Positions 27,901-30,900 of a stretch of 36,052 nt of DNA are shown here, in pieces. Origin of the DNA: Kipferlia bialata. Taxonomy: Eukaryota. The translations under genes and the position numbers were made by a program. How positions within the stretch are numbered: position 1 is the first letter of the stretch; each line of letters starts with the position of its first letter. The DNA lies in the NCBI GenBank assembly GCA_003568945.1, contig BDIP01000053.1:1-36052 (forward strand), read 5' to 3'. The notes beneath the pieces are model-generated. The model saw only the letters and a program-made list of their open reading frames with translations, had not been told where the DNA came from and ran no database searches.

Positions 27901-30900
27901 ATAGAAGGGTACTCGGAAACACACCAGGTATATACCAATCAACACTCTATATATATTGGAGTACAACAGTGTGATGGCATCATGCATGTAAATGGATACA
28001 TGGTTCTCTGACCTACTCGGAAACACACCAGGTGTGTACAATATGTATTTTTTATACACACTATACAATATGCATCATACCCTGACCCCCAGCCATAGGC
28101 GGTGCCTCGTCTCTCTCCAAGGCATACCCAGAGGTCCAGGTAGGGAACCTTTCTCTCAAATATTCTTTCCAATTATGGGTCTTGAAAGAATTGGGCAAGT
28201 ATTTCCCGTCTCACCACTACGGCAGGCTAACCTGAGAAGGAATCTCTCACACACACCCTCACACACACACACACTCTCTCTCTCTCTGACATCAGCGCCA
28301 GATCGATCTGAGGCGGACAGAACTGATGGCCCAGAGACACCTAGAGGCCAAGGAGATGGAGGGGGAGAGAGACATACAGAGACCCCTAGATGCCAAGGAG
28401 GGAGACAGAGAGACAGAGGTGAAGCATGAAGAGACTGCAGCCGACGGAGATACCCTTCACTCCAAGGAGATCGAGAGAGCTGCCATCCTGTGCCAGTCAT
28501 ACCTCAGGTACACACACACACATATATATATATATCTATATCTATATATATATGTATATATATACTAATACTTATATATGTGTATTGTGAGAGCTGCCAT
28601 CCTGTGCCAGTCATGCCTCAGGTACGCTTTACTTATGATACAAATATATGTTGTGTTGGTCTATTGAGTTTGTTGCTTTATCAATGAACCATGTTTTCAT
28701 GTAGTATGCCAAGTTCTCTACATATGTATGTCCATATATATATCTAATGACCCAGGGGCACCAAGGATAGGCGCCATGCCTGGAACATGATATTTGCAGC
28801 AGTCACAATTCAGGTGAGGATATTGTATAAATATATATGTGGATGGAAATATTTGGTTCAGCATGCGATAAGTAACTCGTTTGATTCTCACTCTACCAGT
28901 GTGCTGTCCGGAGCTTCCTCTATAGACGGCAGACATCTAGGGACAAGGAGACAGAAAGAGAGAGACAGGCAGAGAGAGAGAGGGAGAGAGAAAGGGAGGA
29001 AGCGGAGCAGGCTCTGCTAGACACACAAGAGAGAGAGCGTCTGGAGAGGGAGAGGGAGAGAGAGAGAGACCAGCTCGAGAGGGATGCCGTGAGTGTGATA
29101 CTGGCACACAGACAAGGAGCTAGAGTGAGGATGGTAATGCAAGGAGAAGGTATGCAGATACATAAGTATATATATACAAATGTATAGGGGTAGAGAGAGA
29201 GAGAGAGACTGGCACATAGGCAGGGGGCCAGGGTCAGACTAGTCATGAGAGGGGAAGGTATATTTAGATAAGTATGCACTAAATAGTATGTATATGTATG
29301 GCTGTGTATATATGGTATGTATGCATACCCTGACCCCAGCCATCCAGGCCAGGCGCCAGAAGATTGTGTCTCTGACCAATGTGCTGAACAGAGCCAGGGA
29401 GGAACAGGGATTAGGTATTTTTGGGTGAGGTGTTCACTCCCTGTCTATCTCTCTCAATCTATCTCTCGATCTGAAGTTTCCAATTTCTCATTTCCAGACC
29501 AGTTGGCTGCCTCCCTGTTGTCTGAGGTTCTGTCCCACCGGATAGAGTGTGTGGAGAGTGTGCATGCCTTACTAGGAGATACACCCTCAAGCAGTGAGGT
29601 AAAGGTCACATTTTGATATGTATACGTATATATATGTATATATCGGATAGAGTGTGTGGAGAGTGTGCATGCACTCTTAGGGGATACACCATCAAGCAGT
29701 GAGGTATGATACACATGTATGAGTATCCTATTTATGTGAATACAAATGCTTATACCCAGGCTGAGGATGAGACCCCTGCCATTCCCCAGGCCATGTGACT
29801 ATTATACTATAGTACCATGGCATACATACATATACCAACTACAGACACATCTTACCCAGGCTGAGGATGAGACCCCTGCCCTGTCCCAGGTTAGAGAGAG
29901 GGAGAGACATGTGGAGACACCTGAGTACACAGAGACGGAGAGAGAGACCTCTGTCCCCAAGGTATACCACATCCCTACGTATATCCTAATTCACCTGCGT
30001 ATATGCCCTAATGACTAGACCTGTAGTATTCATCTCACGTATACATACTCTTATATATATTCACCATTATTAACACCTAGGCTCCCAAGGTCACCTTTGA
30101 CACTCCCCCAGAGACTGAGAGGGAGAGAGAGGAAGACGAAGAGAGAGAGAGAGATGATGACCAGGGCCTCAAGAGAGAGGGCACCTCCATTGGAGAGCTC
30201 CTTGTCAGAGAGAGAGAGAGGAGAGAGCTTGTCAACGAGAGGGAGAGAGAGCGCGAGAGAGAGCGGGAGCGCGAGAGAGAGAGAGAGAGAGCCAAGGAGA
30301 GACAGCGTGGCAGACAGCCATCCCCTATCAAGAGACGCCAGGTGCCATACCTACACTATACCTATTTATTATTCTCTCTCCGGCTACACCCTCATTCTAA
30401 CAAACAGGAGGCAGAGGGAGAGAAGGATAGCAGGAGAGAGACTGACTGGTCCAAGCCCAAGAAGTCGAGGCGGGTCAAGTTCTACAAGGCAGACTACTCA
30501 AAGGTATGGATGGTACAGTATATATATAGTATAGTAATATATATATGGTATTATGTATATAGTATGTATATGTGTATATATATATGTGTGTGAGAAGTCG
30601 AGGAGGGTCAAGTTCTACAAGGCAGACTACTCAAAGGTATGGGTCACACAGCCCTACTACTTATACACATATTTGTATACAAATGGATGATACAGAGCAC
30701 CTACTAATACTAAATATATATATGTGTATATATATCTTACACTAGGTCAAGTCAAAGGTGTTGCATCCAGTCCAAGGACCTCTCTCTCTCTCTTTCTCTT
30801 TCTCCCTCTCTTATATATGTATATATGTTTATATGTATATAATACTCTCTTACACCAGGTCAAGTCCAAGGTGTCCCAGTCCATCCAGTCCAACAATCTC

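What the first reader, a model, noticed from the sequence alone, without database searches (positions are those of the whole stretch)
29101..29259. Near-completely recoded echo: 10 synonymous codon changes in 16 codons
Seen: exon 29101-29149 reads CTG GCA CAC AGA CAA GGA GCT AGA GTG AGG ATG GTA ATG CAA GGA GAA G|gt (LAHRQGARVRMVMQGE). Echo 29209-29257 reads CTG GCA CAT AGG CAG GGG GCC AGG GTC AGA CTA GTC ATG AGA GGG GAA G|gt (LAHRQGARVRLVMRGE). That is 10 synonymous and 2 replacement codons with no indels. The echo has mostly G/C-ending codons and the exon A/T-ending ones, suggesting the exon-contiguous copy is the derived one (inference). This echo is barely visible at DNA level, so others may be hidden.
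Basis: seen in the sequence. Interest (0 to 1): 0.8.

Follow-up and report, generated by a model that had tools for sequence, protein, structure and literature searches.

The report
Silent-recoded exon echoes inside protist introns
Many introns of this anaerobic protist carry spliced-out partial copies of the neighbouring exon ends that differ almost only at silent codon positions, likely leftovers of DNA repair that copied from a long-diverged second version of the same gene.

Summary
Confirmed: 29209-29257 repeats exon end 29101-29149 with 10 synonymous and 2 replacement codons (35/49 nt). One DNA contig spans both copies with no differences from the window. One spliced contig removes 29150-29339 whole, so the echo is intronic in that transcript.

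It is the most diverged of echoes at 20 splice sites in 15 introns of 4 genes of an intron-rich fornicate (likely Kipferlia). Differences by codon position are 13/7/52, with 50 synonymous and 13 replacement codons. A copy decaying neutrally in the intron is rejected (0-1 of 2000 simulations). Donor-side similarity stops at the splice site. Five introns hold exon end + whole inner intron + next exon start.

Both copies therefore most likely diverged while coding, in separate haplotypes, and were joined recently. Likely mechanism (inferred): failed homologous repair from a diverged allele or homeolog, closed by end joining; K. bialata has Pol theta and no Ku70. No donor haplotype or outgroup was found, so which copy is newer is unresolved. 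Rare use of echoes in transcripts is not excluded.

The parts
28900..29149 (+). Coding exon of a long, ER/SR-rich, intron-rich gene (gene X, about 24.9-34.9 kb); its last 49 nt (29101-29149) are the copy present in mRNA
   Evidence: X2 contig 8 piece 29075-29147 with 0 other letters; 9 of 9 record offsets fit a 10-exon, stop-free 495-codon model
29150..29339 (+). 190-nt GT-AG intron that removes spacer, echo and rest in the spliced contig
   Evidence: contig 8 joins 29147 to 29338 with the shared AG
29150..29208 (+). 59-nt spacer: used donor, TA-rich stretch, then a sense-strand (GA)n tract at 29192-29207; no branch point + AG. The tract is the only (GA)6+ run in 10 introns checked versus 5 in 10 exons, so it may be exon-derived and part of the echo (inference)
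29209..29257 (+). Focal donor-type echo: 16 codons, 10 synonymous and 2 replacement changes
29258..29339 (+). 82-nt normal-looking intron behind the echo: unused GT, branch motif at 29330-29334, used acceptor at 29338-29339
29340..29414 (+). Next exon
28014..28033 (+). Donor echo (18 nt identical) in RNA-supported intron 27928-28092
28589..28623 (+). Donor echo (1 replacement) in RNA-supported intron 28508-28755
29644..29790 (+). Paired echo: exon end (5 synonymous, 0 replacement in 20 codons) + 56-nt inner intron + next exon start (2 replacements), inside RNA-supported intron 29599-29859
   Evidence: (X2 depth 0.55 and 0 in bins 29595-29804)
30593..31070 (+). Paired echo (donor echo 30593-30636, 109-nt inner intron, acceptor echo at 30746) plus two further acceptor echoes near 30860 and 30966
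   Evidence: X2 depth 0 over 30540-30730; the acceptor actually used is not shown by RNA
31249..31316 (+). Donor echo, 3 synonymous and 0 replacement in 21 codons
   Evidence: frame from ORF continuity, not RNA
31660..31692 (+). Donor echo, 1 synonymous and 1 replacement
32142..32160 (+). Degenerate acceptor echo (2 synonymous, 1 stop)
32673..32733 (+). Donor echo with a one-codon indel; last 4 codons 3 synonymous
33416..33615 (+). Paired echo: exon end (4 synonymous, 0 replacement), 134-nt inner intron, next exon start (7 synonymous, 1 replacement)
33924..34158 (+). Three donor echoes of exon end 33776-33817 with 1, 4 and 5 synonymous and no replacement changes, behind an N gap
34448..34477 (+). 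Acceptor echo, 2 synonymous and 1 replacement
35550..35822 (-). UBL5/Hub1-like gene: two donor echoes, 141-nt inner intron, acceptor echo
   Evidence: UBL5 match is weak, E=0.16 on a 23-aa exon
16188..16293 (-). Kinesin gene: donor echo, about 70-nt inner intron, acceptor echo
   Evidence: PF00225 E=4.6e-30 on an upstream exon
5466..5495 (+). Acceptor echo in a proline-rich gene (2 synonymous, 1 replacement)

Best explanation
The echo is a spliced-out intronic piece of coding sequence that likely comes from a second, long-diverged working version of the same gene (allele, homeolog or hybrid partner) and was likely joined in recently by faulty homologous break repair. Shown: the echo is in DNA, is removed with intron 29150-29339 in the one spliced contig, and belongs to a set of 20 splice-site echoes whose differences are mostly silent. 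Inferred step 1: two haplotypes diverged while both coded, until silent sites and introns were near saturation but the protein was kept. Inferred step 2: a break was repaired by strand invasion of the other haplotype; copying ran past the break, annealing failed, and the ends were joined (likely by Pol theta, as the lineage lacks Ku), leaving exon end A, partial intron, exon end B and intron B in a row. Inferred step 3: only duplications that the outer splice sites remove survive, which gives donor echoes downstream, acceptor echoes upstream, and paired echoes around a whole inner intron. Inferred step 4: the locus later became homozygous. Less-diverged echoes would come from closer templates or later conversion. 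Which copy was resident and which incoming is not resolved.
For: (1) Over 21 segments (20 sites, 212 codons) differences by codon position are 13/7/52, with 50 synonymous and 13 replacement codons; without the focal echo and using only DNA-found echoes, 25 and 9. (2) Neutral-echo simulation: focal 2 replacements observed versus 7.5-7.8 expected (0 and 1 of 2000 runs as low); the 16 other DNA-found segments 9 versus 21-23 (0 of 2000). A conversion-plus-selection toy model also gives more replacements than silent changes at all 4 rates tried. (3) In 11 donor echoes identity is 0.91 in the last 15 exon nt and about background from the GT onward (own 0.23-0.36 versus cross-pair 0.28-0.35 for +7 to +40), as expected of long-separated coding copies. 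(4) Intronic copy versus intronic copy is also silent-biased: 8 of 9 changed codons. (5) Five of 15 echo-bearing introns hold a contiguous exon end, GT-AG intron and next exon start. (6) In the UBL5-like gene the intron start matches the farther echo (18/20 nt) but not the nearer one (7/20), a mosaic that fits recombining haplotypes better than one lineage's time series. (7) Spacers are TA-richer than the intron behind the echo (0.54 versus 0.34, P=0.002, n=11), a plausible break or joining substrate (inference). (8) K. bialata is listed with PolQ and without Ku70 (PMC8516963 supplement rows); end joining of failed SDSA intermediates makes tandem duplications in C. elegans (PMC8654963 section 12).
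Against: No donor was seen: one search lists no contig of 80% or more identity with other letters over these exons, and no close relative was found. Near-saturated silent divergence is very high for alleles and needs a hybrid or very old allelic lineages, for which I found no published evidence in this organism. Silent divergence is strongly uneven among echoes, from 0/11 to 10/13 (no permutation of 5000 reached it), so one hybridisation does not explain all; the patchy conversion that would rescue it was not detected (adjacent changes 21 versus 19.5 expected, P=0.30). In three arrays the farther copy is always the more diverged, which also fits a time series. Low-divergence echoes with unalignable introns are awkward. 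XPF and ERCC1 are present in K. bialata, so flap clipping is not obviously missing. Exon frames beyond 30503 and in the other three genes rest on ORF continuity, not RNA. The organism is inferred.
Confidence: 0.55

Rival explanations
1. The echoes are old and are kept by present coding-level selection because they are sometimes used, as rare alternative exon ends or by a switch in another life stage.
For: Silent bias holds even between intronic copies (8 of 9). The echo GT is intact in all 12 donor pairs tested. In-frame, stop-free paths through the focal echo exist on paper, such as donor 28814 to acceptor 29194. Graded arrays look like frozen earlier states. Contigs drop rare isoforms.
Against: 10 of 10 used acceptors have a branch motif next to YAG; the focal spacer has none and only 1 of 12 donor-echo pairs has one. 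X2 depth is 0-0.55 over the echoes at 29644-29790 and 0 over 30540-30730, and no echo-type letters are listed in X2. In kinesin and the UBL5-like gene the echoes are partial exons inside conserved domains, so use would need two new splice sites.
Confidence: 0.15
2. Each echo was a same-allele tandem duplicate that coded in cis for a long time (tandem or mutually exclusive exon) and was silenced recently by losing a splice site or part of its length.
For: Explains silent bias with no second haplotype. Gene X is low-complexity and has in-exon repeats, such as 26922/27183. Tandem exon duplication is common in animals (PMC9013439 passages).
Against: Needs the same splice site to be lost independently at about 20 sites. 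Remnants should lie on either side, yet all tallied donor echoes are downstream and all acceptor echoes upstream. Paired echoes have the order exon end, intron, exon start, the reverse of a duplicated internal exon.
Confidence: 0.12
3. One reading: an ordinary same-allele duplicate froze in the intron while the working exon was recoded towards A/T-ending codons.
For: GC3 skew 13:4 in the four most diverged segments (split chosen afterwards). Gene X GC3 is 0.61, close to the echo's 10/16 and above the exon copy's 6/16. Graded arrays.
Against: Needs the echo to escape mutation while the intron around it saturates. Neutral-echo and conversion simulations fail. Overall GC3 skew P=0.10.
Confidence: 0.1
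4. Assembly chimera of two haplotypes joined at TA/GA repeats.
For: Junctions often sit in microsatellites. The K. bialata paper reports two k-mer peaks (PMC5874029 passage). X1 may be the window's own data.
Against: A separately built contig crosses exon copy, spacer and echo with 0 differences at depth 439, equal to its flanks, and no half-depth alternative is listed. The spliced contig matches the exon-contiguous copies only.
Confidence: 0.03

Closest known systems
Tandem duplications from failed SDSA closed by polymerase theta end joining (C. elegans helq-1, PMC8654963 abstract and section 12; aborted SDSA plus alternative end joining in Drosophila, PMC8951532 passages)
   Same: Short direct duplications from about 100 bp. 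K. bialata is listed with PolQ and without Ku70.
   Different: Published copies are described as direct repeats of the copied sequence; here they differ at up to 10 of 13 degenerate codons and donor-side similarity stops at the splice site. Junction microhomology was not demonstrated here.
Human F7 intron 7 minisatellite with silent 5' pseudo-sites (PMC1557585, abstract only)
   Same: A repeat spanning an exon-intron boundary leaves downstream donor copies that stay unused while the first donor is chosen.
   Different: There the donor copies are identical in sequence and belong to one minisatellite; here echoes are gene-specific, occur at donors and acceptors, and are silently diverged.
Tandem exon duplication and mutually exclusive exons (PMC9013439, passages)
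   Same: Intronic sequence homologous to a neighbouring exon.
   Different: These echoes are partial, carry only one splice site each, were not seen in the spliced contig, and are dense: 5 of 10 consecutive RNA-supported introns of one gene.
Stwintrons, fungal nested spliceosomal introns (search listing and abstract starts only)
   Same: A complete GT-AG intron lies inside a larger intron in the five paired cases.
   Different: The inner intron does not interrupt a splice signal of the outer one and is flanked by exon stubs; two-step splicing was not tested.
Intron gain by tandem genomic duplication or intron transfer (PMC3443670, passages)
   Same: Duplication around splice signals; recombination between gene copies moves intron sequence.
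   Different: No new intron position arises; an existing intron is lengthened by about 60-150 nt per echo.

Membership tests
Tandem or mutually exclusive duplicated exon | Duplicate is included in mRNA | tested here: not met
   X2 contig 8 skips 29150-29339; one contig of one run, rare isoforms not excluded
Tandem or mutually exclusive duplicated exon | Duplicate has its own acceptor with branch point and donor | tested here: not met
   Donor present; no branch motif + AG in the focal spacer versus 10 of 10 used acceptors
Neutral same-allele pseudo-exon relic | Differences no more than about half at third positions, replacements common | tested here: not met
   11 of 14 focal and 52 of 72 total differences at position 3; simulations 0-1 of 2000
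Neutral same-allele pseudo-exon relic | Homology continues across the splice site into the duplicated intron part | tested here: not met
   Donor side own versus cross-pair about equal (P=0.33); one donor exception (18/20) and modest acceptor-side similarity (P=0.036)
Failed-SDSA / Pol theta tandem duplication | Direct repeat of about 100 bp to 10 kb | tested here: met
   Offsets 62-149 nt between neighbouring copies; focal 108
Failed-SDSA / Pol theta tandem duplication | Microhomology or templated insertion at the junction | tested here: inconclusive
   Junctions lie in TA- or GA-rich runs, but the parental sequences are unknown
Failed-SDSA / Pol theta tandem duplication | Dependence on Pol theta | not testable with these tools
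   Only gene presence in K. bialata from a published table
Inter-haplotype (allele or homeolog) capture | A diverged donor haplotype whose exon equals the echo | tested here: inconclusive
   None of 80% or more identity listed in X1 or X2; no relative found
Stwintron | Inner intron interrupts donor, branch point or acceptor of the outer intron | tested here: not met
   Outer donors and acceptors are intact; inner introns sit mid-intron between exon stubs

The most novel reading that the evidence does not exclude
The echoes are a maintained reservoir of alternative exon ends: they stay under protein-level selection because an undescribed RNA- or DNA-level switch swaps them in under conditions or life stages not sampled, giving a splice-site-bounded recoding system in a fornicate with a reduced spliceosome.
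Probability: 0.08. Interest if true: 0.9.

Novelty: new variant of a known kind. Interest (0 to 1): 0.62.

Why it matters
If the best reading holds, the introns of this protist store readable pieces of a lost, strongly diverged haplotype. One genome would then record past hybridisation or ancient allelic divergence followed by loss of heterozygosity in a free-living fornicate, a group where the extent of sex is debated (recalled), and the echoes would let one date and map those events genome-wide. It would also show how a Ku-less lineage lengthens its introns (echo-bearing RNA-supported introns 165-261 nt versus 66-156 nt without) and would give natural tests of splice-site choice between near-identical competing sites. 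For annotators, echoes are traps that look like selected exons.

Tried and rejected
No whole genome is held, so nothing was counted outside the 36-kb window. A finer second read laying over 29209-31600 could not be obtained, so RNA cover of the focal echo itself is unresolved: its bin is swamped by (GA)n matches from elsewhere, and the joint, loose-end and piece tables there were cut (20, 319 and 2110 rows not shown). No run was on record as RNA; X2 is treated as RNA because its contig skips GT-AG introns. Protein search with the focal exon end found nothing. Metagenome scans found no relative of gene X (0 of 595 pattern matches) and only distant kinesins (best-segment identity 41-69% in the 80 loci kept, from a scan of 7 of 64 parts), so no outgroup. 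Pfam gave gene X's exon no hit above cut-off. A test for patchy conversion was negative (P=0.30). Errors corrected: one search used a wrong frame for the 5466 echo (fixed, whose totals are quoted); one search placed the in-exon GTGAGT at 29090 instead of 29089, so its rows for that donor are not used; one search stopped on an off-by-one and was rerun, where a few end coordinates are still off by one base (the kinesin inner-intron motif test is invalid; 3 of the other 4 inner introns pass). Three very short or degenerate echoes (near 25592, 31849, 32302) were left out of all counts, and five nearer copies in arrays were left out of the one-per-site totals. Literature searches listed no paper whose title or abstract start describes this pattern; the K. 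bialata genome paper has 0 occurrences of 'duplicat' in its main text. Subscription papers are not covered.

Full report
Observation. The translated match is 14/16, against a best of 7/16 among the other 16-codon windows of the window's two strands (72,002 examined).

Organism. The intronless carbamate kinase at about 7130-8095 (-) has as best named relatives Chilomastix caulleri, Spironucleus salmonicida and Giardia muris (58-60% identity), so this is a fornicate. It is intron-rich, and PMC5874029 (passages) calls Kipferlia bialata the only intron-rich fornicate then known (124,912 introns, two k-mer peaks suggesting diploidy). I infer Kipferlia or a close relative. No whole genome was held.

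DNA and RNA. Two runs hold the region. In X1 one 1769-nt contig has a piece covering 29075-30201 with no other letters at depth 439, like its neighbours. The echo is therefore not a misjoin, although X1 may be the window's own data. In X2 a 3208-nt contig lies in pieces that skip GT-AG introns; 9 of 9 tested record offsets fit a ten-exon, stop-free model. It joins 29149 to 29340, so the exon-contiguous copy is used and the echo leaves with a 190-nt intron. This is one contig, and contigs drop rare isoforms. The bin over the focal echo is swamped by (GA)n matches, while the echoes at 29644-29790 and 30593-30636 have X2 depth 0-0.55. All 10 used acceptors have a YTNAY motif close to YAG; the focal spacer has none, although in-frame AGs exist.

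It is one of many. A splice-site-anchored scan gave 99 redundant rows against 0-1 in each of five block shuffles; a translated scan added DNA-faint cases. I curated echoes at 20 splice sites in 15 introns of four genes: gene X, a kinesin (PF00225), a UBL5-like gene (weak, E=0.16) and a proline-rich gene. Five of 10 consecutive RNA-supported introns of gene X carry one. All tallied donor echoes lie downstream of their exon and all acceptor echoes upstream. Seven introns have a donor echo only, three an acceptor echo only, and five both, arranged as exon end, complete GT-AG intron (56-141 nt), next exon start. Frames beyond 30503 and in the other three genes come from ORF continuity.

The silent bias is general. 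Over 21 aligned segments (212 codons) differences by codon position are 13/7/52, with 50 synonymous and 13 replacement codons. For the 16 DNA-found segments without the focal one they are 7/5/27, with 25 and 9; for the three other genes 0/1/8. If a same-allele copy decayed freely while the exon accepted only silent changes, the focal pair should show 7.5-7.8 replacement codons (observed 2; 0 and 1 of 2000 simulations) and the others 21-23 (observed 9; 0 of 2000). Adding two-way conversion with rejection of harmful imports still gave more replacements than silent changes at all four rates. Intronic copies differ from each other at 9 codons, 8 silently. In 11 donor echoes identity is 0.91 in the last 15 exon bases and about background after the GT. 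The simplest reading (inference) is that both copies coded for most of their divergence, and that the echo became intronic recently.

Mechanism. Coding in cis is unlikely: it needs the same splice site lost about 20 times, does not give the one-sided geometry, and would put partial repeats in conserved domains. Coding in trans, on another allele or homeolog, fits the bias, the sharp boundary, the paired fragments and the mosaic in the UBL5-like gene. A route is known: end joining of failed SDSA intermediates by polymerase theta gives tandem duplications of about 100 bp and more in C. elegans (PMC8654963 abstract and section 12), and aborted SDSA ends in alternative end joining in Drosophila (PMC8951532 passages). 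Metamonads lack Ku-dependent NHEJ (PMC8516963 passages), and its supplementary table lists PolQ, XPF and ERCC1 but no Ku70 for K. bialata (four rows seen; one supplementary file was unreadable). With a diverged template such a duplication is born silently recoded, and it survives if the outer splice sites remove it; preference for the first of repeated donors is reported for human F7 (PMC1557585 abstract). Spacers are TA-richer than the intron behind the echo (0.54 versus 0.34, P=0.002). All of these steps are inferred.

Against this reading. No donor haplotype of 80% or more identity is listed, and no outgroup was found. Divergence is uneven among echoes (no permutation of 5000 reached the observed spread), and patchy conversion was not detected (P=0.30). 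In three arrays the farthest copy is the most diverged, as in a time series. Near-saturated silent divergence demands hybrid-level parents, for which searches listed nothing on this organism.

Known versus new. Intronic homologs of neighbouring exons are known (PMC9013439 passages), as are intron gain by duplication (PMC3443670 passages) and nested introns (listing). Unchecked notes from this scan describe single silent-biased relics in other genomes. Nine searches listed nothing describing dense, splice-site-bounded, silently diverged, often paired echoes. PMC6679479 (passages) reports a reduced K. bialata spliceosome (87 of 174 proteins). Verdict: a real feature and a new variant of a known kind; interest 0.62.

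Noticed in passing
window 29068-29100 (+): Eleven codons lie between the ER repeat and the echoed part in the exon but not between the (GA)n tract and the echo. They contain a donor-like GTGAGT at 29089; possibly an indel between haplotypes, a two-step template switch or exonised intron sequence.
   Followed up: partly
window 30746-31070 (+): Three acceptor echoes in a row, two in a near-identical 106-bp unit. The exon-contiguous acceptor is AAG while an echo has a canonical CAG; which is used is not shown. The CT-rich run after the echoes loosely resembles the reverse complement of the exon's GA-rich end.
   Followed up: partly
window 33830-33904: A 75-N gap sits inside the array of donor echoes and may hide a further copy.
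   Followed up: no
window 35709-35870 (-): In the UBL5-like gene the farther echo has Leu where the exon and the UBL5 structure sequence have Arg (alignment), so this echo carries a derived replacement, yet its following intron start is 18/20 identical to the used one.
   Followed up: partly
window 16139-16388 (-): The echo-bearing kinesin intron splits the SSRSH stretch (switch I motif, recalled), a place where a duplicated peptide would hardly be tolerated.
   Followed up: no
window 25001-36052: This part is AT-richer (GC 0.458 versus 0.536) and has 13.7 TATATA per kb versus 3.0 in the first 25 kb; 17 of 20 echo sites lie here.
   Followed up: partly
window 7130-8095 (-): Intronless carbamate kinase with GC3 0.88 in an otherwise intron-rich window.
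   Followed up: partly
window 28480-28930 (+): Gene X has two IQ-like stretches across exon junctions (motif recalled, seen by eye in the translation); the gene has no identified homolog.
   Followed up: no
window 25592, 31849, 32302 (+): Three further short or degenerate echoes, left out of the counts.
   Followed up: no
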